A stretch of 64,000 nt of DNA from Escherichia coli (GTDB lineage: Bacteria; Pseudomonadota; Gammaproteobacteria; Enterobacterales; Enterobacteriaceae). Positions 27,059 to 45,367 of the stretch are shown one piece after another (the stretch's first letter is position 1; every line of letters begins with the position of its first letter). The notes under the pieces are model-generated. The model did not search any database. It had not been told where the DNA came from and worked only from the letters and a program-made list of their open reading frames with translations. The stretch lies in assembly GCF_011045215.1 (NCBI RefSeq), contig NZ_CP049201.1; one strand, given 5' to 3'. Both the position numbers and the translations under genes were made by a program.

Positions 27059-28339
27059 TTAATTTTTCATTGCTTCGTTATGGGGCATGGTTGGGGCAAA
27101 CTCGCTTAACTGTGTATTTAACAAAGCTACCTGTGCATTATTGTTTTCAGACATCCATTTTCCGTATACCTGAAATACCATTTGCGCATCTGCATGGCCC
27201 ATCTGGTTTGCTATAAATGCCGGGTTAGCACCAGCTGTCAGCGACCAGCAGGCATAAGTATGTCTCGACTGATATGATTTTCGATGGCGGAGTCCGGCAC
27301 GTTTTATCGCTGCGTCCCACATCTGCCTTATTGAGTCAACGGTAAAATGGTCACCATAATTTTTTACTCTCGCTGACACTTCAGGTTGAAAAACAAAGGT
27401 GCATTTTTGTTTTTCTGTTCTGCCATACTCTCTGAGGTGAACATCAATGATATGCTCTTTGCTCAGTCTCGTTAATGTCATCTGACTCCGGAGAGCGTCG
27501 ATTGCTGGCTTAATAAGATGAATGACCCGATTGGTTCCCGCCTGTGTTTTTGGTACCGTGAAACGGTCTTTTGCTAAATTTCTCCTGATCATCATTGTTC
27601 CATTTTTCAGATCTATGTCCTCCCATCCAAGTGCACACAGCTCACCAGGGCGAACGCCAGTATAAACAGAAACACACCATAAATTTTTTGCTTGCTGATT
27701 TCTGCACGCATCGATAAGACGGATAAATTCTTCCCGCGAAAGAGGATCCGGAATGGTTCTTGATTCCTTTAATGGCGAGATCCCCTTAAACGGATTATCT
27801 GCCAGGTAACCGTTATCAACACCAAACTGGAACACGGCGTTAAGATTTGTCATGTAATTATTTACAGTTACAGCCGATCTCCCTGGTTGTGTAACAATAT
27901 AGTTACTTTTGGGGGTCTGGTATCCAGTCAGTAGCTCTTTACGAACCTCCAGTAATTTTTCTTTATTAATCGATGAGGCAAGATTTTTTTCACCGATTAT
28001 GCTCAGGATATTTTTGATGACGGCACGGTATGTGTTGAGTGATGTTTTGGCGACTTCAGTTTCTTTCAGTGCCAGAAATTTTTCAGCCAGTTCTTTTATG
28101 GTTAAATCTTGTCGGGCCTCACCAAATTTTTCCAGATTGCGTGAGGAGGGAAACTGTTTTGCATAGTCGAAAACACCAGTTTTTATTGCGTAACAAACAG
28201 AGGAGCGTAGTTCACCTGCAACGCGCCTGTTTTTTGCTGTGTCAGGAACCCCCAGATTTTCCCTGACTCTTACGCCTTTATAAACAAACCAGATACGTAA
28301 TTTCCCTCCATGGTTTTCCACGCCTGTCGGATATTTCAT
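27059..28339 (-). CDS. int: phage integrase, tyrosine recombinase
   Basis: C-terminal catalytic region with R..HxxR..Y arrangement (RHTYACWSL...HADAQMVFQVYGKW); first gene inside the insertion. Confidence 0.9.
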   Translation of the reverse strand: MKYPTGVENHGGKLRIWFVYKGVRVRENLGVPDTAKNRRVAGELRSSVCYAIKTGVFDYAKQFPSSRNLEKFGEARQDLTIKELAEKFLALKETEVAKTSLNTYRAVIKNILSIIGEKNLASSINKEKLLEVRKELLTGYQTPKSNYIVTQPGRSAVTVNNYMTNLNAVFQFGVDNGYLADNPFKGISPLKESRTIPDPLSREEFIRLIDACRNQQAKNLWCVSVYTGVRPGELCALGWEDIDLKNGTMMIRRNLAKDRFTVPKTQAGTNRVIHLIKPAIDALRSQMTLTRLSKEHIIDVHLREYGRTEKQKCTFVFQPEVSARVKNYGDHFTVDSIRQMWDAAIKRAGLRHRKSYQSRHTYACWSLTAGANPAFIANQMGHADAQMVFQVYGKWMSENNNAQVALLNTQLSEFAPTMPHNEAMKN

Positions 28340-28373
28340 TTCAACTTCTCTCATTAGTTAGTGTGGCTTTTAG

Positions 28374-28625
28374 TCAAGTAAGATGACGTCTTGGTCTCGC
28401 TGATGCCTGGCGCTCAATCCAGCGATCAATTTCTTCCAGGTTGTAAAAGCATGGACTGTTATCCCATGGCATACCGTCATGAGCGACATGCTTATATTCC
28501 CTTCCTTCCATAAACGATTTTTCCCGGGCCTTTTTTAACGTACCTTTTTTTATTCCTTTCAGCGCAATTAACTGCTCTTCGGATACCCATTTGCCGGGAG
28601 AGACAATCATGATTACTTCGCTCAT
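28374..28625 (-). CDS. xis: excisionase-like protein
   Basis: 83-aa ORF immediately upstream of int on the same strand; small basic DNA-binding-type protein. Confidence 0.65.
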   Translation of the reverse strand: MSEVIMIVSPGKWVSEEQLIALKGIKKGTLKKAREKSFMEGREYKHVAHDGMPWDNSPCFYNLEEIDRWIERQASARPRRHLT

Positions 28626-28697: not shown

Positions 28698-31169
28698 TTA
28701 AGAATCAGCCTGACTCGGGATCAGTTTTTGCCAGATAACTGAAACGTATTTTGCCTGGTAACGGGCGTCATCAAGTGCATTATGGCGCTCACCTTCGAAT
28801 GGAATAGCCGTTCTGGGATCGAAGTCTATGGCTTTCCCCAGCTCAACGATTGTGCGTACATCGCGATCGTTGTAGTAACGCCACGGGCAGGGGATCCCCT
28901 GCCGTTCGTATGAACGGCGCAAAATCGTGTTGTCGAAGTTGGCTCCATTTCCCCAGACCTGAACAAAAAATTCACCGGAGTTTTCGTCGATAAATTCCCG
29001 CAATTGTAACAGTGCATCATCTAACGGGATTTCATCGGTCATAATGGCAGATTGCGCTTCGCGTGATTGCTTAAGCCACCATTTAATGGTGTCCCGATCA
29101 ATGACTCCGCCAGCAGTTTCCAGATCGATAGTCTTACTAAATTCCGGTCCCATATCTCCGGTTTGCGGATCGAAAAATATTGCACCTATTGAGATGATCG
29201 GGGCATCAGGATTTTTTCCCATGGTTTCAAGGTCGATCATTAGATGGTCACACGTCCTGCTGGTGGATGTGATTTCGTGATGACCGTTCACCTTAATTGA
29301 GTGATCTGCCGTCTCGCCAGTTTCATTATCGCTATTGTGATGCTGATTGCCGCCAGTGTTCTCCTTGTGTGGATGTTCAGCGCCTTCCATTTCCTCCGGA
29401 TCATCTTCCTGAACTTCAACCTGATACTCTTCATCGAATGTTTCTTGGTATGTTGCGTCGCCCATCACCGCGCCACAATCAGGGCAGTTGCCGCCGCCGG
29501 TCTGACCGCAGGCGGTGCAGACTTTTTCCACTTCCTGTTGCGCCACTGGTTCAGGCTGTTTCGTTTCTGGCTCGTTTTGTAACGCATTTGGGCTGTTTTG
29601 TTCCGCTTTTTGGTAGTTCCGTTCCGATTCATGCTGGTTCTGGTTCACAGAATCGCGGGTCTGGATCCCCTTAACCCATTTCGGATCATTCGGGTCACTA
29701 ATCCCTTCAACAAATTCACCACGTGATGCAGCAAGCAACTTATCGGCGTCAGGCTGGCTGATATTGGCTGCCTGCATAATTTTGTTTACTTCGTCAGCGG
29801 TAACTTTTATCGGCTCTGGTTGTTCTGAATCTTCAGCGGTATCTACATTTTGCGGTAAGCCCGTGTATGTGCCATTTTTTCGGGCAAAATATTCTTCTTT
29901 TGTGATTTCAGTGGCGCCAGCAGCCAGTGCCTTATCCAGACCAGAAAGTTTGTTTGCGCGACCGTATTTTTCTCCGTCCTTATCTGCGAAGAGGAAATAG
30001 AACGGCCCCTCACGCTCTACAGATGGTTCAGCTTCCGGCGCGGTTTCATTTTTTGGGATATCAGATACCTCAGTTTCCACTGCATCAGTTTGTGTTTCTG
30101 ATGACTGGAGAACATCAACAGTGCCCAGGTCTGTTTCTTCATTCTCAAACACGCCCTTTGTCGTCAGGTATTCGCAGATATATTTGTTCAGTGCTACGGG
30201 ATCTTTGTGAATGTCGATCGGACGCTCACGGACAAGGCCAAAAATAGTTTGGCGGTCGTAGCGAAGGGCATCAGGCTGTTTGCGCATTGATGCCGAGATA
30301 CGCTTCCAGTCTTCGCGGTCGTTGTCGATAACTTCTTTTTTTGCCCAGCGATGGATGCTGCCGTCAATGTTTCCGGCATCCACATCACCAGGCCAGAGAG
30401 CGTAGGCCAGTTCGTCATCCAGTGTTTTCCATGTCTGCTTGTATTCGCGATGAATGGCAGCAATGACCGGGCTGATTTTTCCTGTTGAATTTTCAGTGTA
30501 CTGTTGATTGGCTCTGGCGCGGGCGAGATCAACAACAGACGTGTATTTTCCGGTTTCCTTGCGTTCACCTTCGCGACGTTTTTTCCAGATGCGCATCTCT
30601 GTCTGAATTTCGGGCCATTTAGCACCAGGAATACATTTATGCTTAACCCACCCAATGGCGTGCAACTTAAGCTCCGGATACATGGCGTTAACTTCTGGCA
30701 TTTTCATCAACGCTTCAACGATATGTCCGTCGAATGTTGCCATGTCTTCCTGCAACAATTCCTGTGTGCTAATAACCATATCAACGGTGATGTTTTCACA
30801 TGTGTCGAACTTAACCATGACAGCGTTCTGTACTTCAGGGGCCAGCTTGTCAAAAGTGACGTTCATCGGATCGGATTCAGTCTCAACCGGGACAAAAGAA
30901 GCAGACTCCTCATCCCAGCGGTTTTCCTGCATATATTCAGCATCCCATGAATCGAGGGCAGGGCGGGGTATGCCAGGTTTATCCTCGCAGATAATAAATT
31001 TATAAGCGCAGTCCTGAGCAGCCGGATAATGTTCCAGGAACTGCCAGTGAAATTTTGCTCGAGCACGGCGTTCGTCGCCAGCTTCAATGGCTGTGGCTAC
31101 AGCCACCGCGCCTTCTCCCCTTGTTGCCAGTTCGTCAGGAATAGCGGCGCAAATAAAGACTTTACTCAT
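28698..31169 (-). CDS. large phage exonuclease with C-terminal DnaQ/DEDDh-like 3'-5' exonuclease domain
   Basis: 823 aa; C-terminal motifs DLETMG, GNGANFD and HNALDDA consistent with DEDDh; long acidic low-complexity central region. Confidence 0.75.
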   Translation of the reverse strand: MSKVFICAAIPDELATRGEGAVAVATAIEAGDERRARAKFHWQFLEHYPAAQDCAYKFIICEDKPGIPRPALDSWDAEYMQENRWDEESASFVPVETESDPMNVTFDKLAPEVQNAVMVKFDTCENITVDMVISTQELLQEDMATFDGHIVEALMKMPEVNAMYPELKLHAIGWVKHKCIPGAKWPEIQTEMRIWKKRREGERKETGKYTSVVDLARARANQQYTENSTGKISPVIAAIHREYKQTWKTLDDELAYALWPGDVDAGNIDGSIHRWAKKEVIDNDREDWKRISASMRKQPDALRYDRQTIFGLVRERPIDIHKDPVALNKYICEYLTTKGVFENEETDLGTVDVLQSSETQTDAVETEVSDIPKNETAPEAEPSVEREGPFYFLFADKDGEKYGRANKLSGLDKALAAGATEITKEEYFARKNGTYTGLPQNVDTAEDSEQPEPIKVTADEVNKIMQAANISQPDADKLLAASRGEFVEGISDPNDPKWVKGIQTRDSVNQNQHESERNYQKAEQNSPNALQNEPETKQPEPVAQQEVEKVCTACGQTGGGNCPDCGAVMGDATYQETFDEEYQVEVQEDDPEEMEGAEHPHKENTGGNQHHNSDNETGETADHSIKVNGHHEITSTSRTCDHLMIDLETMGKNPDAPIISIGAIFFDPQTGDMGPEFSKTIDLETAGGVIDRDTIKWWLKQSREAQSAIMTDEIPLDDALLQLREFIDENSGEFFVQVWGNGANFDNTILRRSYERQGIPCPWRYYNDRDVRTIVELGKAIDFDPRTAIPFEGERHNALDDARYQAKYVSVIWQKLIPSQADS

Positions 31170-31262: not shown

Positions 31263-31454
31263 TTAAAGACCTGCCGGGATTTCGATATTATCCTGGTGAA
31301 TAACTTTATCGACCGGGTAACAGTTACCGGGAATTTTCTGTTCGGTTGCTGCAGTCATACACTCCTGCATTGTCCTGTGAACACTGACTGCAATATCAAC
31401 TGGCTCTCCGGAAACAAGAAAAACTGTCAGAACAAGCGCAAATGCTGAATTCAT
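31263..31454 (-). CDS. ydfD: YdfD (63-aa Qin-type small lysis-associated protein)
   Basis: 63 aa from internal ATG with AAGGA RBS; N-terminal hydrophobic segment; overlaps dicB stop. Confidence 0.75.
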   Translation of the reverse strand: MNSAFALVLTVFLVSGEPVDIAVSVHRTMQECMTAATEQKIPGNCYPVDKVIHQDNIEIPAGL

Positions 31455-31639
31455 TGTGCACATCCTTTTGGCATCAGACGTAAACGAGCCAGCATTGAAA
31501 CAATGCATATTTTATTTAATAGCTCCCGTTCTTGTTTTCTCTTGTTAATGGCATCTTCAGTAAATACAGGGTTACTGATAGTGACACCAATTTCAAAACA
31601 ACCTTCAGACGTATTAACGTTTGGTAATAACGTTTTCAT
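31451..31639 (-). CDS. dicB: cell division inhibitor DicB
   Basis: 62 aa (MKTLLPNVNTSEGCFEIGV...LMPKGCAQ) with GAGGA RBS; directly downstream of dicF. Confidence 0.85.
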   Translation of the reverse strand: MKTLLPNVNTSEGCFEIGVTISNPVFTEDAINKRKQERELLNKICIVSMLARLRLMPKGCAQ

Positions 31640-31807: not shown

Positions 31808-31865
31808 TAAAAACGGCGGCAGAGCAGTCACGGAGTAAAACTGATACCGCCAAACGTCACCAGAA
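31808..31865 (-). ncRNA. dicF: DicF small regulatory RNA
   Basis: minus-strand sequence UUUCUGGUGACGUUUGGCGGUAUCAGUUUUACUCCGUGACUGCUCUGCCGCC followed by a U-run matches DicF (53 nt plus terminator tail). Confidence 0.88.
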
Positions 31866-32125: not shown

Positions 32126-32701
32126 TTAAGGATTCATTAAGCAATGTCGCAACCACCAATAAATCCGCTTAAGAACATGAAAATTGATTACTGGTATAAA
32201 GCGCTTACAGTTGTTGGCGCTGCGTTGTTTGTCTTTAATGGAACGTCTTTTTTTGACAGATATCCCGTTGTTCCATTGGGTTTTTTGTCCTCCGGCATCT
32301 TTTTTATTGGTTTGGGGGAGTGGATTAATCACCCTCTCAAAGTGAGATTTATTGGTCCTGGGGTTTGGACTCGTGGATATAATCGTTCTTCGTGCGCACT
32401 CGGCATCATCTTCGACATACTTGGTTGTTTCCTGATTGTTACAGGAGTCGTCAAGTTCTTCTGATGTAAAACCGCAAATGGGGCACGTAACGGGAATTTT
32501 GAAAAGCGTTTCTCCGGGTTCCAGAACAAAATTTTCTGCGGTCTGATTTTGCTTCTCATATTTGTGCTCCGCGTCATTGTGAGAGCACATTCTTATTCTG
32601 AGTGCCTGTTTAAACTCACTGAAGCTGAGAGCTTCTTCGCCTTCGGCAAGGCCTTCGAAGTATTCTTCGTAAGCCTTTTCCATGATTGTGTCGAAATCCA
32701 T
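32126..32701 (-). CDS. hypothetical protein in the ydfB/ydfC position, possible zinc-ribbon
   Basis: 191-aa ORF translationally coupled to ydfA (AGGTGA RBS, 1-nt gap); CPICGF...C motif; C-terminal third is low-complexity and overlaps an antisense 106-aa ORF, so the true extent is uncertain. Confidence 0.5.
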   Translation of the reverse strand: MDFDTIMEKAYEEYFEGLAEGEEALSFSEFKQALRIRMCSHNDAEHKYEKQNQTAENFVLEPGETLFKIPVTCPICGFTSEELDDSCNNQETTKYVEDDAECARRTIISTSPNPRTNKSHFERVINPLPQTNKKDAGGQKTQWNNGISVKKRRSIKDKQRSANNCKRFIPVINFHVLKRIYWWLRHCLMNP

Positions 32702-32702
32702 A

Positions 32703-32858
32703 TCACTCACCTGAGTTTCTTTCCAGCCAGCGACGGGCACCATTTTCGGTTTTAAACGTTTTGCTTTTGGTATACGTCATCGCGGTGAACGTGCCGTCCT
32801 GGTTGGGGAACACGCCACATACCAGAGATTCGCTGTTGCCAAGATCGATAGTATCCAT
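32703..32858 (-). CDS. ydfA: YdfA (51-aa DicA-operon protein)
   Basis: 51 aa from internal ATG with GAGG RBS; first gene downstream of dicA. Confidence 0.75.
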   Translation of the reverse strand: MDTIDLGNSESLVCGVFPNQDGTFTAMTYTKSKTFKTENGARRWLERNSGE

Positions 32859-33026: not shown

Positions 33027-33434
33027 TTATTTTATTGATTTATTTTTACGCGCTTTAAGCATTTCTTCGAAGAGTTTGTTGAAGTTTTCTACTCTTGCGC
33101 GCATTTCAGACAGCAAGGCTTCCTGCTCGGAAGATGGAAGAGCATCGAATAATTCGATCAATTCTTTGTGGTTGGGAGTTAGCTCTGTTTCCACATGAAG
33201 TTCTTGTGCAGGCACTGGTGCCTTGTCTTCATCACCAAACATTAGCCATGTAGGTGAGCACTTCAGAGCATCCGCTAAAGCAAACAATCGTTTTCCGACT
33301 GGCTGGGTTTCGTCTCTTTCCCATTGTGAAATTGTGACGTGAGCAACTCCAGCGAGGCGCGCAGCTTCTCGTTGTGTTAAGCGTAATTCTTTTCGTCGCG
33401 CCAGAACTCGCTGGCCTAGGGTTCTTGTATCCAT
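33027..33434 (-). CDS. dicA: HTH XRE-family repressor DicA
   Basis: 135 aa with N-terminal HTH (LTQREAARLAGVAHVTISQWERDETQP); divergent from dicC. Confidence 0.88.
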   Translation of the reverse strand: MDTRTLGQRVLARRKELRLTQREAARLAGVAHVTISQWERDETQPVGKRLFALADALKCSPTWLMFGDEDKAPVPAQELHVETELTPNHKELIELFDALPSSEQEALLSEMRARVENFNKLFEEMLKARKNKSIK

Positions 33435-35831: not shown

Positions 35832-36470
35832 ATGAAGATGAAAAACATGTCTGAAGTGTTGACCCAAGAAAAGCTTATTTTTGTTGCCCAGAGACTAAAG
35901 GCCCTCGCGCAGTCAGGCCTGACCTATTCAAAAGACGTCTTTGACAAGGAACGCTATGAAGCCTTGCGTGAAATTGCCGCTGGACTGCTGAGTTCGCAGT
36001 TTGATATTAGCCGCAATGATTTGTTTCATGTATCGGAAACGGGTTACGCGACGCCCAAAACAGATGTGCGTGCGTTTATCCTGCGTAATAATCGTATTCT
36101 GATGGTGAAAGAGGCTGCAGATGGATTATGGAGTCTTCCTGGCGGATGGGCAGATGTTGGAGATACACCTTCTGAAGCTGTGCGTCGAGAGGTCGAAGAA
36201 GAAACCGGATTAAAAGTCAGAGTGACTAAACTATTGGGAGTTTGGGATCGTAATCTTCACGGCCATCCGCCTTTACCCTGGCATGTTTACAAGCTGATTT
36301 TTCTCTGTGAAGAAGTAGGTGGCAGCCTGTCAATCAGCCATGAGTCACTCGATGCTGATTTTTTTGATGTCAACGACCTGCCTGAATTGTCGCTTTCAAG
36401 AATTGTGCCTGAGCAGATTGCTGTCAGCCTGAGAGTAGCGAAAGGTGATGAAAAAACATGGTTTGATTAA
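35832..36470 (+). CDS. Nudix hydrolase with N-terminal extension domain
   Basis: 212 aa; Nudix-box core GGWADVGDTPSEAVRREVEEETGL. Confidence 0.85.
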   Translation: MKMKNMSEVLTQEKLIFVAQRLKALAQSGLTYSKDVFDKERYEALREIAAGLLSSQFDISRNDLFHVSETGYATPKTDVRAFILRNNRILMVKEAADGLWSLPGGWADVGDTPSEAVRREVEEETGLKVRVTKLLGVWDRNLHGHPPLPWHVYKLIFLCEEVGGSLSISHESLDADFFDVNDLPELSLSRIVPEQIAVSLRVAKGDEKTWFD

Positions 36471-36493
36471 CTTTCTTCTGCAACCATTAAGGA

Positions 36494-37138
36494 ATGGCAA
36501 TGATATTCAACGCTAAGGGTTTTTTATTCGATATGGACGGTACGCTGGTTGATTCAACAGCCGTAGTGGAAAACGTCTGGAGAGATTTTTGTGCAGAATA
36601 CGGTCTTGATTCTCAGGCTGTGATTGCTTACGCACACGGGCGGCAAACGATTGATACACTAACGCATTTTATTGGTGCAGGTGAGAAAACCAATAAAATC
36701 GCGGCCTCACTCGAAGAGGTTGAAATCAACACGACAGAAGGCGTTACTGAAGTAAAAGGGGCCGCTGCACTCTTATCAAAACTGCCACCGGATAGCTGGG
36801 CACTTGTCACTTCTGCAGGCAGAATGCTTGCCGAAAACAGGATGAAAGCGGCTAATCTCCCCTTACCCAGAGTAATGGTGTGTGCAGAAGATGTAATGAC
36901 GGGAAAACCAAGTCCCGAGGGTTACATCAAAGCAGCTTTGGCTTTGGGCCTTGAGCCTGGTGAATGCGTGGTATTTGAGGATGCATCTGCGGGTATAAAA
37001 GCAGGGCTGGCAAGTGGAGCTTCGGTAATAGCTGTTCAGCCTGACGCTCTGGGATCATCTGAAGCCCATGCCGTCAGCGAACTGTCTGACATTATGGTCA
37101 AGATTTCCGGAGAACGTTTCAATATCATCTGTGGTTAA
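36494..37138 (+). CDS. HAD-superfamily phosphatase (beta-phosphoglucomutase-like subfamily)
   Basis: 214 aa; motif I FDMDGTLVDS, motif III lysine region and downstream acidic motif (EDASAG); 24 bp after the Nudix gene. Confidence 0.85.
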   Translation: MAMIFNAKGFLFDMDGTLVDSTAVVENVWRDFCAEYGLDSQAVIAYAHGRQTIDTLTHFIGAGEKTNKIAASLEEVEINTTEGVTEVKGAAALLSKLPPDSWALVTSAGRMLAENRMKAANLPLPRVMVCAEDVMTGKPSPEGYIKAALALGLEPGECVVFEDASAGIKAGLASGASVIAVQPDALGSSEAHAVSELSDIMVKISGERFNIICG

Positions 37139-37476: not shown

Positions 37477-37687
37477 TTTCATATTGGCGAGGTAACGGTA
37501 GTTAAGTAGAATGGCTGCGGGTGCTTGAGGCTATCTGCCTCGGGCATGAACACCAACGGCAGATAGAGAAAAGCCCCAGTTAACATTACGCGTCCTGCAA
37601 GACGCTTAACATTAATCTGAGGCCAATTTCATGCTAGACACATGTAGGTTAGCCTCTTACGTGCCGAAAGGCAAGGAGAAGCAGGCT

Positions 37688-37843
37688 ATGAAGCAGCAAA
37701 AGGCGATGTTAATCGCCCTGATCGTCATCTGTTTAACCGTCATAGTGACGGCACTGGTAACGAGGAAAGACCTCTGCGAGGTACGAATCCGAACCGGCCA
37801 GACGGAGGTCGCTGTCTTCACAGCTTACGAACCTGAGGAGTAA
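37688..37843 (+). CDS. hok: Hok/Gef-family type I toxin
   Basis: 51 aa MKQQKAMLIALIVICLTVIVTALVTRKDLCEVRIRTGQTEVAVFTAYEPEE, typical Hok; in-frame upstream ATG at 37631 could act as a mok-like leader. Confidence 0.88.
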   Translation: MKQQKAMLIALIVICLTVIVTALVTRKDLCEVRIRTGQTEVAVFTAYEPEE

Positions 37844-38657: not shown

Positions 38658-39707
38658 GTGCGGGTATTACTTCGACCTGTTCTGGTACCGGAACTCGGGC
38701 TGGTGGTCGTTAAGCCGGGCCGTGAATCCATGCCGGTATTCCACAATACCCGGGTACTGGTGGAGCCGGAACCGAAAAGCATGCGTAATCTGCCGTCCGG
38801 GATCGTTCCTGCCGTTCGCCAGCCGCTGGTGGAAGACAAAACATTGCTGCCGTTTTTCAGTAATGCACGGGTAATTCGTGCTGCTGGTGGTGCTGGTGCA
38901 TTGTCTGACTGGCTGTTGCGCCATATTAAATCCTGCCAGTGGCCACACGGCGATTATCATCACAGCGAAACCGTTATTCACCGTTATGGTACCGGCGCAA
39001 TGGTGTTGTGCTGGCACTGCGACAACCAGCTGCGTGACCAGACATCCGAATCACTCGAGCAACTTGCTCATCAAAACCTGTCAGCATGGATGATTGACGT
39101 CATCGGTCACGCAATAAGCGGTACGCAGGAGCGTGAATTATCTCTGGCTGAATTATCCTGGTGGGCGGTCCGCAATCAGGTGGCGGACGCGCTACCGGAA
39201 GCGGTATTACGTCGTTCGCTGGGGTTGCGTGCGGAAAAAATCCGCTCCATGTACCGTGAAAGCGACATCGTACCGGGAGAGCAGACCGCCACCAGCATAC
39301 TGAAACAGCGCACAAAAAATCTTGCGCCGCTGCCTCACGCCCACCAGCAACAGAACCCACCACAGGAAAAGACGGTGGTCAGCATTGCCGTTGATCCTGA
39401 GTCTCCGGAATCTTTCATGAAACGACCTAAACGTCGCCGCTGGGTTAATGAAAAGTACACGCGCTGGGTTAAGACACAGCCGTGTGCATGTTGTGGAAAG
39501 CCCGCTGATGATCCCCACCACCTGATAGGCCACGGTCAGGGGGGAATGGGTACAAAAGCGCATGACCTCTTTGTGTTGCCTTTGTGCAGAAAGCATCACG
39601 ACGAGCTGCATGCGGATACCGTGGCATTTGAAGAGAAGTATGGCTCCCAGCTGGAGCTGATATTTCGTTTTATCGATCGTGCGCTGGCAATTGGCGTGCT
39701 GGCCTGA
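38658..39707 (+). CDS. ydfU: YdfU-like DUF968 protein with C-terminal HNH-like zinc motif
   Basis: 349 aa; C-terminal CACCGK...HHLIGHGQGG...CRKHHDELH; immediately upstream of Q as in Qin. Confidence 0.8.
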   Translation: MRVLLRPVLVPELGLVVVKPGRESMPVFHNTRVLVEPEPKSMRNLPSGIVPAVRQPLVEDKTLLPFFSNARVIRAAGGAGALSDWLLRHIKSCQWPHGDYHHSETVIHRYGTGAMVLCWHCDNQLRDQTSESLEQLAHQNLSAWMIDVIGHAISGTQERELSLAELSWWAVRNQVADALPEAVLRRSLGLRAEKIRSMYRESDIVPGEQTATSILKQRTKNLAPLPHAHQQQNPPQEKTVVSIAVDPESPESFMKRPKRRRWVNEKYTRWVKTQPCACCGKPADDPHHLIGHGQGGMGTKAHDLFVLPLCRKHHDELHADTVAFEEKYGSQLELIFRFIDRALAIGVLA

Positions 39708-39724
39708 TTTTGTGGAGAAAGTTG

Positions 39725-40069
39725 ATGCGTGATATGTATGAAGTTTTAGACCGCTGGGGAGCGTGGGCTGCAGCAGATAACAGTGGTGTGGACTGGCAGC
39801 CGATAGCAGCAGGCTTTAAGGGGCTTTTACCTCATGGTAAAAAAATACGCCTTCAGTGTGATGATGATGAAGGCATCATGATAGACGGCTGTGTTGCCCG
39901 CCTGTGTAAGTATAAACCAGACGAATATGAGCTGATCATTGCTCACTTCGTTATAGGTATTTCACTGCGTTCTATTGCGAAGAGACGCAGATGCTCAGAT
40001 GGAACAATCCGGAAGCAATTGCAGACTGCGTTAGGTTTCATTAATGGGGTTATGTACATGCTCAAGTAA
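39725..40069 (+). CDS. Q: late-gene antiterminator Q (933W/82-type)
   Basis: 114 aa from ATG with GGAG RBS (MRDMYEVLDRWGAWAA...), N-terminus resembles small Q antiterminators. Confidence 0.8.
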   Translation: MRDMYEVLDRWGAWAAADNSGVDWQPIAAGFKGLLPHGKKIRLQCDDDEGIMIDGCVARLCKYKPDEYELIIAHFVIGISLRSIAKRRRCSDGTIRKQLQTALGFINGVMYMLK

Positions 40070-41288
40070 TATTTGGCATTAATTTAAATAAAATACCGAT
40101 GATGCCTATGAATGTAGGCATCCATGCTAGTGATAATAAACTGTCAAGCACCTTATGACAAAAATCCTCATTGTCATTTAATTTTTTAATAGCCTCTTCT
40201 AAGCTCTCTTTAAGATCGCTGGTGTCATCCTTTATTCTATATCTTAATTGTCCAAAAAGTATTTCTTTAGAGTGTGAAATACGAGCAAGTTGTTTTTTTT
40301 GTGACACAATCATTGCAGATGTTATTATTGCTGTGATAATCAATCCAATTAAAGCAATAATCCAATCAGCTTTTGTTGTTAATTTGAAAATAGCAATTGA
40401 ACCAGCTAGTGAAATAGGTATTGCAAGAGCTTTGTTAGAAATTTCTGAAATTATTTTTGACAGTTTTTCTGAGTAATCGAGTTCAGCATCAACAACTTCT
40501 TTCCTTGCTTTATGAAAAGAAAATGCCGATATATAAGCAGCTAAGTTGTTCGTATAAAGTTCGCATATGAAATCCCACTTGTTAATTAACTCGACAAAGG
40601 AATTTCCATTTTTATTAACATACTCAATAACTGTGTTTCTGAAAGTGTTAATCTTTTCAATGTGATGGGCATCAGTAGTAGCTTCACTACTTACTAATGT
40701 TTTAACTAACTGAGTATTTACTGTTTTATCATTAAAAATTTCTTCTGTAATATTTGTTTCAATTACAGCAGAAGAAGATTTAGACTCTGAGTTTAAAATA
40801 AAGACTAAACGATAAAATGTACCTTTGCTATCTTTTTTTATATCATGGAAATGAGCAAGCATGGAAAGAGCATTGATTAGCTCACAAATGTCCTCAATTT
40901 TTTGGATATAAGAAGGTTTTGGTGTTTCTAATGAATAGAAATCATCCTCTATAATATAGAAATACTCTGGCATTATGCCTTTCTTGAGCGTGTTTATTTT
41001 TACAAACTCGTTTTTATTTTTATAAAAACGATTCGCACTTCCTTGTGAAATTTTAAACGAGTATGTAAGAAAATTTCCCTTTTCAGGAAAGTCTTCATAA
41101 TCATAAATTAAATGACCATCCACCTCTATTTCGTCAGCTGTACCAGCTTGAAAAGTAGGGTTCAAAATTCTTTTGAACAATGATTTTACGTCTGCATTAT
41201 AAGCTATACGCGCAGAAAACTTAGCCCCGTCAAAATGAGGATAGCTTGATAATCTATACAGATTAACTATTATACTAAAATCATTCAT
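40062..41288 (-). CDS. candidate defence effector: protein with soluble N-terminal domain and C-terminal transmembrane helices
   Basis: 408 aa, AT-rich; hydrophobic segments ALAIPISLAGSIAIFKL, WIIALIGLIITAIITSAMIVS and WMPTFIGIIGILFKL; start overlaps upstream gene stop (ATGA). Confidence 0.75.
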   Translation of the reverse strand: MNDFSIIVNLYRLSSYPHFDGAKFSARIAYNADVKSLFKRILNPTFQAGTADEIEVDGHLIYDYEDFPEKGNFLTYSFKISQGSANRFYKNKNEFVKINTLKKGIMPEYFYIIEDDFYSLETPKPSYIQKIEDICELINALSMLAHFHDIKKDSKGTFYRLVFILNSESKSSSAVIETNITEEIFNDKTVNTQLVKTLVSSEATTDAHHIEKINTFRNTVIEYVNKNGNSFVELINKWDFICELYTNNLAAYISAFSFHKARKEVVDAELDYSEKLSKIISEISNKALAIPISLAGSIAIFKLTTKADWIIALIGLIITAIITSAMIVSQKKQLARISHSKEILFGQLRYRIKDDTSDLKESLEEAIKKLNDNEDFCHKVLDSLLSLAWMPTFIGIIGILFKLMPNIT

Positions 41289-42451
41289 TCTTTATCTTCT
41301 TCATTACTCGGGTTATCAGTTTCTTTCAACGCTCTTCTTATCTTAGTTAATGCTTCAACAGGCAAATTATTAAATGTTAGGCTTTGGTTTTCGTCATCAT
41401 AATATATTTTAGCATCAGTTGTGACACCGAGTAAATCCTTGTCGAAGTGAAAGCTCAATGATGGGGTTTTATATATCACATTGCGGATTTTATCTAAGGA
41501 GTTTTTATTGATTACGAACTCTGATGGGATTCTGACTTCCTCACTATTGAGGTGTTTCATTAATTTATCAACAAGTTCTGTTTTTTCTTCCTCTTTTAAA
41601 TAGGACATATGGCCTGAAGCAAGCGATTCGATATCAGAAAGCCTTGCAGAGTGCTCGTTGTCAAATTGCTTTTCTAAGTATTTGATAACATCATTTCTAA
41701 ATGACTCTGCTTGATTTTTTAAAAGAGGTTCTTTCTTAAAGAAACGCCTTATTTCATCTGGTAACTTACGGGTTGCGCCTGCTGAAGCAATCCCCTTGTC
41801 ACATCCTAATGCTGCTATAAAATATGCTGCCGCTGACTGTCCCGTAGTTTTGCTTATAAAGCTTAGATAACTTAAGTCTGTTTTTTTTAAATCATCTGCT
41901 TTTTGGTATTCTTCATAATATCTGAAATTTATTTTTGCTGCTTGGTTAATATTACCAAGTTCTAAGTGAATCATTTCCTCTGGCTCTAAATTTTCACTAA
42001 TAGTTACGCCATTAGTTTTTTTGATCATTGTAACCAATAGATAACGGAAACCAGATAAAATATAATCAGTAAAAACAACATATCCTCCAGAAGCCCAAAT
42101 CTGCTCTTGAGCAGATTTATACATTTGTTTCATAACTTCCTTCGATAATTCAATGAAATCATTTGAAACAGATTGTTGAACTAAAGAGTATTTATGAAAT
42201 AGTTCTGGTATAGGGCCTTGTTTTGTTTTATTTTTAATAAAAACACCATAATGCGCTGAGTTCCCTTTTGAACCATACAAATCAATAACACCGTCTACTA
42301 ATTTTTTTACTATATCATTTGTTTTATCTAGTTCTGTATCACGAAGATTGTATGGTTTGGAGTGATCGAAGTCTTTATTAGATTCTTTTAAGAGCTCATG
42401 AACGATTACGTGGCGTATGCTTGCTTTGCTCATTTTTTTGGTCAATTCCAT
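41285..42451 (-). CDS. YejK/NdpA-like (NA37 family) nucleoid-associated-type protein
   Basis: 388 aa, AT-rich; blocks resembling E. coli YejK (IRHVIVHELLK; SGGYVVFTDY..FRYLLVTMIK...ISENL; YLSFISKTTG..AAYFIAALG); start may be the internal ATG at 42433. Confidence 0.75.
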   Translation of the reverse strand: MELTKKMSKASIRHVIVHELLKESNKDFDHSKPYNLRDTELDKTNDIVKKLVDGVIDLYGSKGNSAHYGVFIKNKTKQGPIPELFHKYSLVQQSVSNDFIELSKEVMKQMYKSAQEQIWASGGYVVFTDYILSGFRYLLVTMIKKTNGVTISENLEPEEMIHLELGNINQAAKINFRYYEEYQKADDLKKTDLSYLSFISKTTGQSAAAYFIAALGCDKGIASAGATRKLPDEIRRFFKKEPLLKNQAESFRNDVIKYLEKQFDNEHSARLSDIESLASGHMSYLKEEEKTELVDKLMKHLNSEEVRIPSEFVINKNSLDKIRNVIYKTPSLSFHFDKDLLGVTTDAKIYYDDENQSLTFNNLPVEALTKIRRALKETDNPSNEEDKE

Positions 42452-42550
42452 GCGGTTAAGCTAACAATTGTAAAGAGCATAATAAATTACTAACGCGTAC
42501 GCAAAAACTATCATAATCTGTTAAGAGTGGTTACTTCGCCACACAGCTTA

Positions 42551-42577
42551 AACCCGCCGTCGAGCGGTTTTTTTGTA
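42551..42577. terminator. hairpin plus T-run upstream of the AT-rich operon
   Basis: aaacccgccgtcgagcggttttttt: bulged stem flanked by A-run and T-run, possibly bidirectional. Confidence 0.4.
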
Positions 42578-42672
42578 CCTGTAAAACTGGTGCAGTACAG
42601 TAAACACGCTGGTGGTCGTGAATACTGACTTTTTATCTTGCTGGCTTTTTAGACAAGAGTTATTGGTATGTC

Positions 42673-42900
42673 ATGTTAACCAGAAGGGAAAAAGACATGC
42701 TAAAACAGCAAGATATGACAGAAACCGCCGCCGCAGTCCTTCATTTCTTACCTGCTGACAAGTGGGTAACGCCACGCATGATGACGAGAACTACCGGAGT
42801 AAGCGAAGCCCGGTGCCAGTTAATACTGACTCAGTTAGTTCTGGCGGGTCTGGCGAAGGATAACGGCGGGTACGGGAATAAATTCAGACGCTGCCAGTAA
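42673..42900 (+). CDS. small hypothetical protein, possible winged-helix DNA binding
   Basis: 75-aa ORF upstream of the methyltransferase gene. Confidence 0.5.
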   Translation: MLTRREKDMLKQQDMTETAAAVLHFLPADKWVTPRMMTRTTGVSEARCQLILTQLVLAGLAKDNGGYGNKFRRCQ

Positions 42901-43050
42901 TGGCGGTTTCCTGCTGTGAAAATGGGCGGCTGGTGGGTGTTGGTAGCACCTGCCAGCCATTCGCTCATGCTTACTGGTCACAAGCGAACCACGGCCCACT
43001 GCTTTAGCGCAAAAGCAGAGTGAGCCTACCAGAGTTACGCTTACTGATCC

Positions 43051-44103
43051 ATGAAAAATACTGTAAAAATAAACAGTGTTGATTTAATCAACGCTGATTG
43101 CCTGCATTTTATTCAGTCCTTGCCTGATGATTCCATTGATCTGATTGTTACCGATCCGCCGTACTTCAAAGTGAAGCCCAACGGCTGGGACAATCAGTGG
43201 AAAGGGGACGAAGATTACCTGAAGTGGCTGGACTACTGTCTGGCCCAGTTCTGGCGGGTACTGAAACCAGCCGGAAGCCTTTACCTGTTCTGTGGACATC
43301 GCCTGGCATCTGATATTGAGATCATGATGCGTGAACGTTTCAACGTGCTTAACCATATCATCTGGGCGAAGCCGTCCGGACGTTGGAATGGGTGTAATAA
43401 AGAAAGTCTGCGCGCATATTTTCCTGCCACAGAGCGCGTTCTGTTTGCTGAACATTACCAGGGGCCATATCGCGGCAAAAGTGACGGCTATGCGGCAAAA
43501 GAAAGGGAACTCAAACAGCACATAATGGCACCGCTGATATCGTATTTCAGGGATGCTCGTGCCGAACTGGGTATAACGGCAAAACAAATTGCCGAAGCCA
43601 CAGGTAAGAAAAATATGGTTTCCCACTGGTTTGGTGCCAGTCAGTGGCAGTTGCCGAATGAGGCTGACTATCGGAAGTTACAGGCACTGTTTTCCCGTAT
43701 AGCGGCAGAGAAGTTTCAGGAACAACAACTGGAACAACCACACCACCAGCTGGTGGCATCTTATGATTCACTGAATCGCAAATATTCTGAATTGCTGGAT
43801 GAGTTTAAATCTCTCCGGCGCTATTTCTCCGTATCAGTCTCCGTGCCTTATACCGATGTCTGGATGCATAAACCCGTTCAGTTCTACCCGGGTAAACATC
43901 CGTGTGAGAAACCTGCGGATATGCTCCGGCAAATAATCAATGCCAGTAGTCGACCTGGTGATCTGGTTGCTGATTTTTTTATGGGATCCGGTTCCACAAT
44001 AAAAGCAGCAATGGCGCTGGGGCGTCGGGCCTTAGGTGTTGAGCTTGAGTCAGAGCGGTTTAACCAGACAGTGAAAGAGATATACGAGCTGGTGGGGAAA
44101 TAA
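43051..44103 (+). CDS. DNA N6-adenine/N4-cytosine methyltransferase
   Basis: 350 aa with DPPY catalytic motif near N-terminus and AdoMet motif FFMGSGST near C-terminus (beta-class arrangement). Confidence 0.88.
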   Translation: MKNTVKINSVDLINADCLHFIQSLPDDSIDLIVTDPPYFKVKPNGWDNQWKGDEDYLKWLDYCLAQFWRVLKPAGSLYLFCGHRLASDIEIMMRERFNVLNHIIWAKPSGRWNGCNKESLRAYFPATERVLFAEHYQGPYRGKSDGYAAKERELKQHIMAPLISYFRDARAELGITAKQIAEATGKKNMVSHWFGASQWQLPNEADYRKLQALFSRIAAEKFQEQQLEQPHHQLVASYDSLNRKYSELLDEFKSLRRYFSVSVSVPYTDVWMHKPVQFYPGKHPCEKPADMLRQIINASSRPGDLVADFFMGSGSTIKAAMALGRRALGVELESERFNQTVKEIYELVGK

Positions 44104-44109
44104 TCTGGT

Positions 44110-44130
44110 GGCCACGTAGGTGGCCTTTTT
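44110..44130 (+). terminator. rho-independent terminator after methyltransferase gene
   Basis: stem ggccac/gtggcc, loop gtag, followed by ttttt. Confidence 0.7.
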
Positions 44131-44169
44131 ATTTCCATTACACAGCACCCGCATCTGCGAGGTGGGGTT

Positions 44170-44385
44170 ATGAAATCCATGGATAAGTTAACAACGGGTG
44201 TCGCCTATGGCACCTCAGCAGGTAGTGCCGGGTACTGGTTTTTACAGTTGCTCGATAAAGTCACGCCCTCACAGTGGGCGGCAATAGGTGTGCTGGGTAG
44301 TCTGGTATTTGGCTTGCTGACGTATCTGACAAACCTTTATTTCAAGATTAAAGAAGATAAGCGTAAGGCTGCGAGAGGTGAATAA
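44170..44385 (+). CDS. phage holin
   Basis: 71-aa two-TM protein with charged C-terminus, directly upstream of lysozyme. Confidence 0.85.
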
Positions 44386-45346: not shown

Positions 45347-45367
45347 CTGGAGAAAAAACACGAATCT

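What the first reader, a model, noticed from the sequence alone, without database searches (positions are those of the whole stretch)
28698..31169. Unusually large early-region exonuclease with acidic low-complexity core
The 823-aa protein has a clear DEDDh-type 3'-5' exonuclease domain only in its last 200 residues. The central region is highly acidic and repetitive, and the N-terminus has no motif I can identify. No bet/recT-like partner is evident in the window.
Basis: partly seen in the sequence, partly recalled or inferred. Interest (0 to 1): 0.3.

Follow-up and report, generated by a model that had tools for sequence, protein, structure and literature searches.

The report
RecE-scaffold prophage protein with swapped exonuclease
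This is the intact form of the E. coli Qin-prophage gene ydfE: a protein built on the same long N-terminal scaffold as the recombination nuclease RecE but ending in a 3'-5' DnaQ/DexA-type exonuclease, with no DNA-annealing partner. It is a very common, already annotated, biochemically untested prophage gene rather than a new kind of system.

Summary
The 823-aa ORF at 28698-31169 (minus strand) is real, intact and under purifying selection. It is WP_164475706.1 "exonuclease", in a 90%-identity cluster of 23,183 sequences. Its exonuclease module occurs in 4054 of 5426 complete E. coli genomes. In K-12 the ortholog is the IS2-truncated pseudogene ydfE.

Residues 636-823 are a canonical DEDDh 3'-5' exonuclease (Pfam Rv2179c-like, E=1.5e-67). 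All five catalytic residues are present, and the best sequence and fold match is T4 DexA.

The first 635 residues are not motif-free. They are the YdfE_N/YdfE_C scaffold, homologous to the N-terminal region of RecE, whose function is unknown. Residues 475-622 are about 85% identical to Rac RecE and end at the boundary of RecE's nuclease domain.

Relatives with the same scaffold carry a PD-(D/E)XK nuclease and a downstream gene in the recT position (RecT-type in four of five). The DEDDh variants run straight into xis-int.

The centre is acidic and predicted disordered, but it is not repetitive.

The closest stand-alone homologs sit in Erf-SSB-exonuclease-Abc2 recombination modules. A 2025 paper already lists phage Tritos, which carries a 99% identical gene, as a nuclease-only, Chi-rich module type.

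Most likely it is a scaffold-tethered 3'-5' DNA exonuclease of the early-left operon working with host recombination. This is a domain-swapped variant of a known family and of modest interest.

The parts
28698..31169 (-). Whole gene, the intact ortholog of K-12 pseudogene ydfE. It encodes 823 aa and is identical to WP_164475706.1 'exonuclease'.
   Evidence: ORF. Exact database match in a cluster of 23,183 members. K-12 ydfE is cut by IS2E at the same locus next to rspB. dN/dS is 0.23.
30555..31169 (-). Residues 1-205 (YdfE_N): a small alpha/beta domain (about residues 1-100) followed by a helical domain (about 105-205).
30150..30434 (-). Residues 246-340: a helical domain. This is where direct BLASTP homology to RecE begins (RecE ~278-340).
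   Evidence: AF2 pLDDT 93-98. BLASTP to Rac RecE. dN/dS for the 241-345 bin is 0.12.
30012..30149 (-). Residues 341-386: acidic linker (about 30% D+E).
   Evidence: Composition. Low pLDDT at the end of the N-terminal model.
29871..30011 (-). Residues 387-433: small folded beta-hairpin/helix domain with the family-conserved motif GPFY...RANK...EIxxEExxARK.
   Evidence: AF2 model mb153d7c03214 has pLDDT 93-96 here. Conserved in the consensus of alignment A5.
29304..29747 (-). Residues 475-622: a 'hinge' shared with RecE. It holds the conserved motif LLAASRGEFVEGISDPNDPKWV, a disordered Q/E/P-rich stretch, a CxxC-x7-CxxC zinc knuckle and an acidic tail. It acts as the recombination linker between scaffold and nuclease modules.
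   Evidence: About 85% identical to Rac RecE 450-591. blastn shows homology to the PD-(D/E)XK variant ending at gene nt 1867. Homology to Rac recE spans nt 1425-1867, and homology to a Rac-type-N/DEDDh variant starts at nt 1447.
29475..29519 (-). Residues 551-565: CTACGQTGGGNCPDC, a putative zinc knuckle also present in Rac RecE.
   Evidence: Regular-expression match. Conserved in RecE. Not confidently modelled by AF2, pLDDT 52-58.
28701..29264 (-). Residues 636-823: DEDDh (DnaQ/DexA-like) 3'-5' exonuclease domain.
   Evidence: Pfam PF16473 E=1.5e-67. Sequence match to PDB 8KEL, T4 DexA, E=6e-8. Foldseek best hit 8KEL at E=2.5e-10, then RNase T, REXO2/Orn and Cap18. Catalytic residues conserved.
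29259..29266 (+). Chi site (GCTGGTGG, phage top strand) in the codons for S-T-S at the hinge/exonuclease junction, 32 nt before the DLETMG motif.
   Evidence: It is at the same relative position in 6 of 8 DEDDh variants, including lineages saturated at synonymous sites. It is absent from all 5 PD-(D/E)XK variants.
31263..31454 (-). ydfD-like lysis gene, immediately upstream in the same operon.
   Evidence: ORF. Annotation of near-identical loci.
31451..31639 (-). dicB (cell-division inhibitor), upstream in the same operon.
   Evidence: ORF translation. Annotation.
31814..31865 (-). DicF small RNA, upstream in the same operon.
   Evidence: Rfam RF00039, 72.5 bits against a gathering score of 48.
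28374..28625 (-). Excisionase, 72 nt downstream of the exonuclease stop. No recT lies between them.
   Evidence: ORF. Annotation.
27059..28354 (-). Integrase. The prophage is inserted next to rspB, the Qin locus.
   Evidence: ORF. Annotation.
33027..33434 (-). DicA/CI-like repressor that controls the leftward early operon containing the gene.
   Evidence: ORF. Annotated dicA in near-identical loci.

Best explanation
The gene encodes a modular early-operon nuclease of a lambdoid (Qin/Tritos-type) prophage. A RecE-family scaffold of about 635 residues is fused to a DEDDh 3'-5' exonuclease domain that stands where RecE has its 5'-3' PD-(D/E)XK nuclease. The scaffold consists of two well-folded N-terminal domains, a small beta/alpha domain, a disordered acidic hinge and a zinc knuckle.

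Shown: the architecture, the intact catalytic site, purifying selection on every module, and the module swap at a conserved hinge. Also shown are the consistent absence of an annealase in this variant and the position of the gene in the DicA-repressed dicF-dicB-ydfD-exo-xis-int operon.

Inferred: after induction or infection the protein removes nucleotides from free 3' ends of DNA, using two-metal DEDDh chemistry. The scaffold supplies whatever targeting or tethering it also supplies to RecE. Because the phage has no annealase, SSB or RecBCD inhibitor but is rich in correctly oriented Chi sites, the enzyme most likely works with host RecBCD/RecA recombination, for example by trimming 3' tails or flaps. 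It is not a self-contained exonuclease-plus-annealase recombinase.
For: Exonuclease identity:
- Pfam PF16473 at E=1.5e-67.
- DEDDh residues present, conserved in 105/106 homologs and aligned to DexA's catalytic residues.
- AF2 domain pLDDT about 90.
- Best fold match is T4 DexA, a 3'-5' DNA exonuclease, at E=2.5e-10.

Scaffold shared with RecE:
- BLASTP E=9e-62.
- NCBIfam RecE model matches residues 246-625 only.
- An iterated profile search links YdfE_N to the RecE N-terminal region.
- All four combinations of N-terminal type and nuclease type exist.

Module swap:
- Nucleotide homology to the PD-(D/E)XK variant stops at gene nt 1867. A Rac-type-N/DEDDh variant shares only nt 1447-2472.

Partner pattern:
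- PD-(D/E)XK variants have a 269-313-aa gene next to or overlapping the nuclease gene in 5 of 5 loci. It is RecT-type in 4 of 5.
- DEDDh variants go straight to xis/int in 10 of 10 loci.

Link to DNA recombination:
- The closest stand-alone homologs (56-59% identical) lie between SSB and Abc2, next to Erf/Rad52-like annealases, in epsilon34 and mEpX2.
- PMC12315714 treats such DnaQ-like nucleases as Rec-module members. It lists Tritos, which carries a 99% identical gene, as a nuclease-only, Chi-rich class.

Reliance on the host:
- The prophage part of the window has 15 Chi sites, 11 on the top strand. They are concentrated at 38.7-47.3 kb around the cos/terminase region, against about 2 expected in the whole window.
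- The window has no Gam, Abc2, SSB or annealase.

Selection:
- dN/dS is 0.11-0.39 in every module.
Against: - No biochemistry exists for this protein or for any fused relative.
- The Pfam family is named after an exoribonuclease, and NCBI often names these proteins '3'-5' exoribonuclease'. After DexA, the nearest folds are RNase T and oligoribonucleases.
- According to PMC12315714, 3'-5' DnaQ-type exonucleases usually inhibit homologous recombination. The same paper calls one- or two-gene Rec modules 'somewhat suspect'.
- The gene is dispensable for the host and for some prophages. It is IS2-truncated in K-12, IS600-interrupted in some EHEC strains and frameshifted in PPompW_EH1846.
- The function of the scaffold is unknown even in RecE, so the 'targeting' step is pure inference.
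- The N-terminal folds match nothing informative.
Confidence: 0.55

Rival explanations
1. It is a prophage-borne anti-phage nuclease of the DexA-like 'HREX' type. It would digest the modified (5hmC) DNA of superinfecting T-even phages while sparing host DNA.
For: PMC12153337 shows that a stand-alone E. coli DexA homolog, EcD, degrades T4 DNA but not unmodified dsDNA and protects cells from T4. This domain's best sequence and fold match in PDB is DexA. Acidic residues D782 and D784 flank the position aligned to DexA D169, which that paper implicates in 5hmC recognition. The gene is extremely common in E. coli prophages.
Against: EcD is a different protein. Its cloning primers show that it starts MIDTET and ends TIPETYD. 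DexA W152 is a Tyr here, Y766. The gene sits in the repressor-controlled early-left operon, not in a lysogen-expressed moron position. PADLOC gives no hit. The model does not explain the 635-residue RecE scaffold. The closest stand-alone homologs sit inside recombination modules.
Confidence: 0.12
2. It is an exoribonuclease that trims or degrades RNA 3' ends, either phage or host transcripts, for example processing in the dicF-dicB operon. This follows Rv2179c, the enzyme that gives the Pfam family its name.
For: The Pfam family PF16473 is named '3'-5' exoribonuclease Rv2179c-like'. NCBI names include '3'-5' exoribonuclease'. RNase T, REXO2 and oligoribonuclease are strong structural matches. 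The DicF small RNA is encoded in the same operon.
Against: The best sequence and fold match is a DNA exonuclease, DexA. The domain replaces a dsDNA exonuclease on a RecE scaffold. Stand-alone homologs lie beside SSB, annealase and Abc2 genes. Substrate type cannot be read from DEDDh sequence.
Confidence: 0.12
3. It is a RecE-like recombination exonuclease whose annealase partner is simply elsewhere, encoded outside the window or supplied by co-resident prophages.
For: The scaffold is shared with RecE. E. coli genomes carry a median of 2 and up to 10 matching places. About 32% also carry a Rac-type recE-recT cassette.
Against: The polarity is opposite to every known exonuclease-annealase pair. 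A 3'-5' enzyme destroys the 3' tail that an annealase needs. Complete phage genomes with this gene have no annotated annealase: 39.5 kb of the 45-kb HannyBb genome was inspected, and PMC12315714 classes Tritos as lacking one. The recT-position gene is lost together with the PD-(D/E)XK domain in every DEDDh variant examined.
Confidence: 0.08
4. It is a functionless hitch-hiking remnant of a degraded recombination module, kept only because lambdoid prophages are abundant.
For: Inactivated copies are frequent. Many cluster members are partial. PMC12315714 calls single-gene Rec modules 'somewhat suspect'.
Against: dN/dS is 0.11-0.39 across all modules against a 13%-diverged ortholog. Catalytic residues are kept in 105/106 homologs. 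Intact copies occur in viable isolated phages: HannyBb, Tritos, Evi and mEp460. The DEDDh module has been recombined onto at least two scaffold types.
Confidence: 0.08

Closest known systems
RecE (exodeoxyribonuclease VIII) of the Rac prophage, with RecT
   Same: Same position in the early-left operon just upstream of xis-int. The N-terminal and central scaffold is homologous: residues 262-625 align with RecE 278-591, about 85% identical over the last 150 residues, including the CxxC-x7-CxxC knuckle and acidic tail. The N-terminal part is remotely related. The scaffold ends at the boundary of RecE's nuclease domain, placed at about residue 564 in the review PMC11611040 and at 615 by Pfam PF12684.
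   Different: The nuclease domain is DEDDh with 3'-5' polarity instead of PD-(D/E)XK (PF12684) with 5'-3' polarity. There is no recT downstream. The protein scores 283 bits against the NCBIfam RecE equivalog, whose cut-off is 1269. The N-terminal domain is of the YdfE_N type rather than PF06630.
Stand-alone DnaQ-like nucleases of lambdoid/P22-like Rec modules (Salmonella phage epsilon34 gp34, E. coli phage mEpX2_032)
   Same: 56-59% identical over the whole exonuclease domain, in the same Pfam family and with the same catalytic residues. Also encoded in the early-left operon.
   Different: They are 182-aa single-domain proteins flanked by Erf/Rad52-like annealase, SSB and Abc2. Here the domain is fused to a 635-residue RecE-type scaffold, and no annealase, SSB or anti-RecBCD gene is present. 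They keep Trp at the DexA W152 position, whereas this protein has Tyr.
T4 DexA (exonuclease A; PDB 8KEL) and the E. coli DexA homolog EcD ('HREX')
   Same: DexA is the best sequence match (E=6e-8) and best fold match (E=2.5e-10, TM about 0.65-0.72 on the target) in PDB. The five catalytic residues are identical.
   Different: Identity is only 27%. DexA's extra loops are absent. The residue aligned to DexA W152 is Tyr, and the DexA D169 position aligns to Phe flanked by two Asp. DexA and EcD are stand-alone proteins. EcD is a different sequence.
Mycobacterium tuberculosis Rv2179c (the protein that names Pfam PF16473)
   Same: Full-length match to the family model, positions 2-177 of 177.
   Different: Rv2179c did not appear among PDB sequence matches even at E<=10. 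It is a stand-alone bacterial exoribonuclease, not a phage fusion protein; that statement rests on the Pfam description and my own knowledge.
'Tritos-type' nuclease-only Rec module (class B in PMC12315714)
   Same: Phage Tritos carries a 99.0% identical gene. The window prophage shows the same features: no annealase, SSB or anti-RecBCD gene, and many top-strand Chi sites clustered near the cos/terminase region.
   Different: None in kind; the window prophage appears to belong to this class. In the text available to me, the paper does not describe the nuclease as a RecE-scaffold/DnaQ chimera. Its supplementary tables could not be read.

Membership tests
DEDDh (DnaQ-like) 3'-5' exonuclease superfamily / Pfam PF16473 Rv2179c-like | Exo I motif D-x-E | tested here: met
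   D646 and E648 in MIDLETMG. Invariant in the alignment with DexA D7/E9. Conserved in 105/106 homologs.
DEDDh (DnaQ-like) 3'-5' exonuclease superfamily / Pfam PF16473 Rv2179c-like | Exo II acidic residue | tested here: met
   D746 in GNGANFD, aligned to DexA D119.
DEDDh (DnaQ-like) 3'-5' exonuclease superfamily / Pfam PF16473 Rv2179c-like | Exo III motif H-x4-D (the 'h' subtype) | tested here: met
   H796 and D801 in RHNALDD, aligned to DexA H186/D191.
DEDDh (DnaQ-like) 3'-5' exonuclease superfamily / Pfam PF16473 Rv2179c-like | Profile score above the curated threshold, and an RNase H-like fold | tested here: met
   227 bits against a cut-off of 27. AF2 domain pLDDT about 90. Foldseek gives probability 1.00 to DexA, RNase T, Orn and Cap18.
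DEDDh (DnaQ-like) 3'-5' exonuclease superfamily / Pfam PF16473 Rv2179c-like | Metal-dependent 3'-5' exonuclease activity, and substrate (DNA or RNA) | not testable with these tools
   Needs enzyme assays.
RecE / exodeoxyribonuclease VIII (NCBIfam NF007259 equivalog) | Full-length match above the equivalog cut-off | tested here: not met
   283 bits against a cut-off of 1269. Only residues 246-625 match model positions 271-602.
RecE / exodeoxyribonuclease VIII (NCBIfam NF007259 equivalog) | C-terminal PD-(D/E)XK 5'-3' nuclease domain (PF12684) | tested here: not met
   Absent from the Pfam scan. It is present in Rac RecE at 615-850 and in P0103 at 649-884. tblastn with the RecE C-terminal domain found nothing in the window.
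RecE / exodeoxyribonuclease VIII (NCBIfam NF007259 equivalog) | Homologous N-terminal/central scaffold | tested here: met
   BLASTP E=9e-62 over residues 262-625. The profile link further towards the N-terminus is partly by construction, because RecE-type rows are in the profile.
RecE / exodeoxyribonuclease VIII (NCBIfam NF007259 equivalog) | Cognate annealase (recT) immediately downstream | tested here: not met
   xis follows after 72 nt. No RecT, Bet or Erf match in the window.
Pfam YdfE_N (PF27430) + YdfE_C (PF27432) | Match to both family models | tested here: inconclusive
   The local Pfam copy lacks these models. Precomputed hits are on record for the 92%-identical cluster representative P0010 and for relatives. 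The K-12 pseudogene ydfE is the truncated ortholog at the same locus.
Two-component phage recombinase (5'-3' exonuclease + single-strand annealing protein) | 5'-3' dsDNA exonuclease (lambda Exo / RecE / PD-(D/E)XK type) | tested here: not met
   The only nuclease domain is DEDDh. No lambda Exo or RecE nuclease match in the window.
Two-component phage recombinase (5'-3' exonuclease + single-strand annealing protein) | Adjacent annealase gene | tested here: not met
HREX (DexA-like nuclease specific for 5hmC DNA; PMC12153337) | Residues equivalent to DexA W152 and D169, proposed to recognise 5hmC | tested here: inconclusive
   W152 aligns to Y766. D169 aligns to F783, flanked by D782 and D784. 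The alignment is uncertain by one residue either way.
HREX (DexA-like nuclease specific for 5hmC DNA; PMC12153337) | Selective digestion of modified phage DNA and protection against T4 | not testable with these tools
   Needs assays. The tested protein EcD is a different sequence.

The most novel reading that the evidence does not exclude
The scaffold-tethered 3'-5' exonuclease is the single phage-encoded component of a host-dependent recombination strategy. It would trim 3' tails on phage DNA ends so that host RecBCD can load and be switched on by the phage's own Chi sites. One of those Chi sites is conserved inside the gene, exactly at the scaffold/nuclease junction. The natural swap between nucleases of opposite polarity on one scaffold would also show that the long-unexplained RecE N-terminal region works independently of nuclease polarity and of RecT.
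Probability: 0.2. Interest if true: 0.55.

Novelty: new variant of a known kind. Interest (0 to 1): 0.33.

Why it matters
RecE-RecT is a workhorse of recombineering, yet the function of RecE's first ~590 residues is still unknown.

In complete E. coli genomes the DEDDh module of this variant is found more than twice as often as the Rac-type nuclease-recT cassette: 4054 genomes against 1728. By number of places the ratio is over four to one, 8109 against 1841. No functional study of this variant turned up in the literature searches.

The two forms share the scaffold but differ in nuclease polarity and in having a recT-position gene. That makes them a ready-made comparison for asking what the scaffold does. 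It also offers a way to ask how Chi-rich lambdoid phages without an annealase use host recombination.

If the enzyme instead turns out to be a DexA-like defence nuclease, most E. coli strains would carry an unrecognised anti-T-even factor.

As it stands this is a clarified annotation, not a discovery. The gene, its exonuclease domain, the Pfam scaffold families and the nuclease-only module class are all already on record.

Tried and rejected
- PADLOC gave no hit for the exonuclease or for the two ORFs of the low-GC island.
- I looked for internal repeats to test 'repetitive' and found none.
- The first global alignment of all family members (A2, 2679 columns) was too fragmented by mosaicism to use. 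I rebuilt domain-trimmed alignments A3 and A5 instead.
- The A5 profile match to DexA is by construction, because DexA is a row of A5. It is not used as evidence.
- The hhalign link of A3 to the RecE N-terminus is partly by construction for the same reason.
- I tried to recover the EcD gene of PMC12153337 from its reverse primer in viral contigs. The single match was a chance hit with no exonuclease ORF. From the primers, EcD starts MIDTET and ends TIPETYD, so it is not this protein.
- One literature search was wasted on prefix matching of 'RecE' to 'receptor'.
- Supplementary tables of PMC12315714 are not held, so I could not see how Tritos's nuclease was typed.
- I considered and rejected a RecE annotation ('exodeoxyribonuclease VIII', as several phage records name it). 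The equivalog score, the nuclease domain and the partner gene all fail.


Full report
**1. What is there**

The window carries a lambdoid prophage inserted next to rspB, the site of the cryptic prophage Qin in K-12. On the minus strand the order is:
- a DicA/CI-like repressor (33027-33434)
- the small RNA DicF (31814-31865; Rfam 72.5 bits)
- dicB
- ydfD
- the 823-aa ORF (28698-31169)
- xis (28374-28625)
- int (27059-28354)

The ORF has a GAGG ribosome-binding motif, and no promoter-like site on the gene's strand was found in 28.3-33.6 kb. I therefore read it as part of the repressor-controlled leftward early operon. In K-12 the same position holds the pseudogene ydfE, truncated by IS2E, so the window has the intact form of ydfE.

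The protein is identical to WP_164475706.1, named 'exonuclease'. It belongs to a 90%-identity cluster of 23,183 sequences, variously named exonuclease, 3'-5' exonuclease or 3'-5' exoribonuclease. DNA matching at least 80% of the gene is present in 3536 of 5426 complete E. coli genomes, with up to 10 matching places per genome. It also occurs in isolated phages at 99.0-99.5% identity (HannyBb, PhiR42_1, Tritos) and 87-92% identity (mEp460, Evi).

**2. The observation**

Coordinates, length and strand are exact.

The C-terminal domain is a DEDDh exonuclease:
- Pfam PF16473 matches residues 642-813 at E=1.5e-67.
- The motifs are D646/E648, D746 and H796/D801. They are kept in 105 of 106 homologs.
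- They align column for column with the catalytic D7/E9/D119/H186/D191 of T4 DexA.
- AlphaFold2 models residues 636-823 at pLDDT about 90.
- Foldseek ranks DexA (8KEL) first at E=2.5e-10, followed by RNase T, REXO2/oligoribonuclease and Cap18.

The protein is acidic, with net charge -64, and residues 561-600 are 35% D+E. Residues 440-479 and 500-635 are predicted disordered. It is not repetitive: self-BLASTP gives only the self-hit.

No annealase, SSB, Gam, Abc2 or 5'-3' exonuclease is detectable anywhere in the 64-kb window. Pfam scans of the early-region ORFs show only a YdaT-like protein, an unassigned 339-aa ORF in the position that PGAP and the HannyBb annotation call replication protein O in related prophages, DUF977, NUDIX, HAD, DUF968 and a methylase.

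**3. The N-terminal 635 residues**

The local Pfam copy sees nothing here. Newer Pfam models, precomputed for the cluster representative, call it YdfE_N plus YdfE_C.

BLASTP aligns residues 262-625 with Rac RecE 278-591 (E=9e-62). Identity is about 85% from residue 470 on, including a CxxC-x7-CxxC knuckle (551-565) and the acidic tail. An iterated profile search pulls RecE-type N-terminal regions in as well.

AlphaFold2 with a trimmed 41-sequence alignment gives a confident model of residues 1-350, mean pLDDT 91.6. It shows:
- an alpha/beta domain at about residues 1-100
- a helical domain at about 105-205
- a poorly ordered basic linker
- a second helical domain at 246-340

The second model adds a small beta-hairpin/helix domain at 387-433 (pLDDT above 90) and an ordered conserved motif at 480-499.

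**4. A module swap**

The family is small: 248 cluster representatives at E<=0.001 among 1.84 billion, apparently all from enterobacterial-type prophage contexts. It is also mosaic.

Among 49 long representatives, 13 match the PD-(D/E)XK nuclease model PF12684 and 6 match the DEDDh model PF16473. PF06630 'Exonuc_VIII' turns out to be the Rac-type N-terminal domain (RecE residues 2-178), not the nuclease. All four combinations exist:

| N-terminal type | Nuclease | Example |
|---|---|---|
| PF06630 | PD-(D/E)XK | Rac RecE |
| PF06630 | DEDDh | P0128 |
| YdfE_N | PD-(D/E)XK | P0103 |
| YdfE_N | DEDDh | this protein |

At the DNA level:
- The gene is 91.7% identical to the P0103 gene over nt 1-1867, with no similarity beyond.
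- It matches Rac recE only at nt 1425-1867.
- It matches the P0128 gene only at nt 1447-2472.

Residues 475-622 are therefore a conserved hinge at which scaffolds and nucleases are exchanged. The swap point coincides with the start of RecE's nuclease domain.

The exchange carries the partner gene with it. All five PD-(D/E)XK variants examined have a 269-313-aa gene abutting or overlapping the 3' end. It is RecT-type in four and an unannotated phrog_3657 protein in one. All ten DEDDh-variant loci run directly into xis/int.

In complete E. coli genomes the DEDDh module is found in 4054 genomes (8109 places). The Rac-type nuclease-plus-recT cassette is found in 1728 genomes (1841 places).

**5. 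Is it functional?**

Against the phage Evi ortholog, dN/dS is:
- 0.23 overall
- 0.11 for residues 1-240
- 0.12 for residues 241-345
- 0.39 for residues 346-470
- 0.33 for residues 471-630
- 0.175 for the exonuclease domain

Every module is therefore under purifying selection. The linker and hinge bins, which contain the disordered stretches, are the least constrained. Against this, inactivated copies are common: IS2 in K-12, IS600 in some EHEC strains and a frameshift in PPompW_EH1846. The gene is thus dispensable for the lysogen.

**6. What it most likely does**

The closest relatives of the exonuclease domain outside the fused family are 182-aa stand-alone proteins of P22-like and lambdoid phages, 56-59% identical. 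In epsilon34 and mEpX2 they lie in the order Kil, Erf/Rad52-like annealase, SSB, exonuclease, Abc2.

PMC12315714 (Genome Res 2025) independently reports DnaQ-like 3'-5' nucleases as members of lambdoid recombination modules. It notes that such enzymes usually inhibit recombination. Its Table 1 lists a 'Tritos' type of four phages with a nuclease but no annealase, SSB or RecBCD inhibitor, and with many Chi sites. Tritos carries a 99% identical copy of this gene.

The window prophage fits that class. It has 15 Chi sites, 11 of them on the top strand, concentrated at 38.7-47.3 kb around the cos/terminase region. About 2 would be expected in the whole window.

I therefore commit to the following. 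The protein is a 3'-5' exonuclease acting on DNA 3' ends during the early programme. It is delivered by the RecE-type scaffold and works with host RecBCD/RecA rather than with a phage annealase. Architecture, catalytic site, selection, operon position and partner loss are shown. Activity, DNA as substrate, the role of the scaffold and the link to RecBCD are inferred. A specific version, in which the enzyme trims 3' tails so that RecBCD can load, is plausible from what is known of E. coli single-strand exonucleases. That part rests on my own knowledge and is untested.

**7. Rivals**

(a) A DexA-like defence nuclease. PMC12153337 shows that an E. coli stand-alone DexA homolog, EcD, digests 5hmC T4 DNA and protects against T4. 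But EcD is another sequence. The residue at the DexA W152 position is Tyr here. The operon position argues against expression in the lysogen. The scaffold is left unexplained.

(b) An exoribonuclease, as the Pfam and NCBI names suggest. This cannot be excluded from sequence.

(c) A RecE-like enzyme with a distant partner. This is contradicted by the polarity and by complete phage genomes that lack an annealase.

(d) A decaying remnant. This is contradicted by selection and by repeated re-assortment of the intact module.

**8. Comparison and novelty**

The protein works like a DnaQ/DexA-family exonuclease and meets every sequence and fold criterion of that family. It is not a RecE: three of the four defining features tested fail.

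It belongs to the Pfam YdfE_N/YdfE_C architecture and to the published nuclease-only, Chi-rich Rec-module class. The analysis adds four things:
- the explicit RecE-scaffold/DEDDh chimera
- the hinge as the exchange point
- the coupled loss of the recT-position gene
- the numerical dominance of this form in E. coli

None of this is a new kind of system. It is a domain-swapped variant of a known family, already annotated and never assayed.

Noticed in passing
window 29259-29266 (+), inside the gene; also L002, L007, L009, L015, L016: A top-strand Chi site (GCTGGTGG) lies in the S-T-S codons at the hinge/exonuclease junction, 32 nt before the DLETMG motif. It is at the same relative position in 6 of 8 DEDDh variants, including lineages saturated at synonymous sites. 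None of the 5 PD-(D/E)XK variants has any Chi site in the gene.
   Followed up: partly
window 38699-50335: Chi sites are strongly enriched in the prophage: 15 in 37 kb, 11 of them on the top strand. Seven top-strand sites lie at 38.7-44.1 kb, just left of the terminase/cos region. The whole window has 19 against 2.1 expected. This matches the Chi-rich, Rec-module-poor phage class of PMC12315714.
   Followed up: partly
window 40062-42451 (-): A low-GC island (32% GC against about 50% around it) holds two co-oriented ORFs that overlap by 4 nt. One is a 388-aa NA37 nucleoid-associated-like protein (Pfam E=2e-50). The other is a 408-aa protein with no Pfam family (phrog_5023) and a hydrophobic C-terminus. 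The island lies between the Q-like antiterminator and the methylase and lysis genes. It looks like a moron and possibly a defence pair, but PADLOC gives no hit.
   Followed up: partly
window 35832-37138 (+): An adjacent NUDIX hydrolase (with a Nudix_N domain) and a HAD-family hydrolase sit in the replication/nin region. The NUDIX protein has a weak PADLOC match to candidate system PDC-S07 at E=7e-10.
   Followed up: no
window 37519-37693 (+): A sok antitoxin RNA of a hok/sok-type toxin-antitoxin locus (Rfam 115 bits). The related prophage annotates hokD here.
   Followed up: no
window 32126-32743 (-): A 205-aa ORF in the early-left operon between the repressor and DicF has no Pfam family (phrog_35040, function unknown). 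Its first ~48 residues match a separate small phrog. Related prophages have ydfA/ydfB/ydfC at this position instead.
   Followed up: no
L012 6565-7380 (+): In one PD-(D/E)XK RecE-family locus the gene in the recT position encodes a 271-aa protein with no Pfam hit, matching only phrog_3657 (function unknown). It is a candidate for an unrecognised annealase type.
   Followed up: partly
L008 5001-7418 compared with window 28698-31169: The exonuclease domain of P0128 is nearly identical to the window's (pN 0.011, pS 0.056), while its N-terminal 470 residues are diverged to saturation. This points to recent transfer of the DEDDh module between scaffold types.
   Followed up: yes
window 43051-44103 (+): A 350-aa N6/N4 DNA methyltransferase lies just upstream of the lysis cassette (Pfam E=5e-42).
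   Followed up: no
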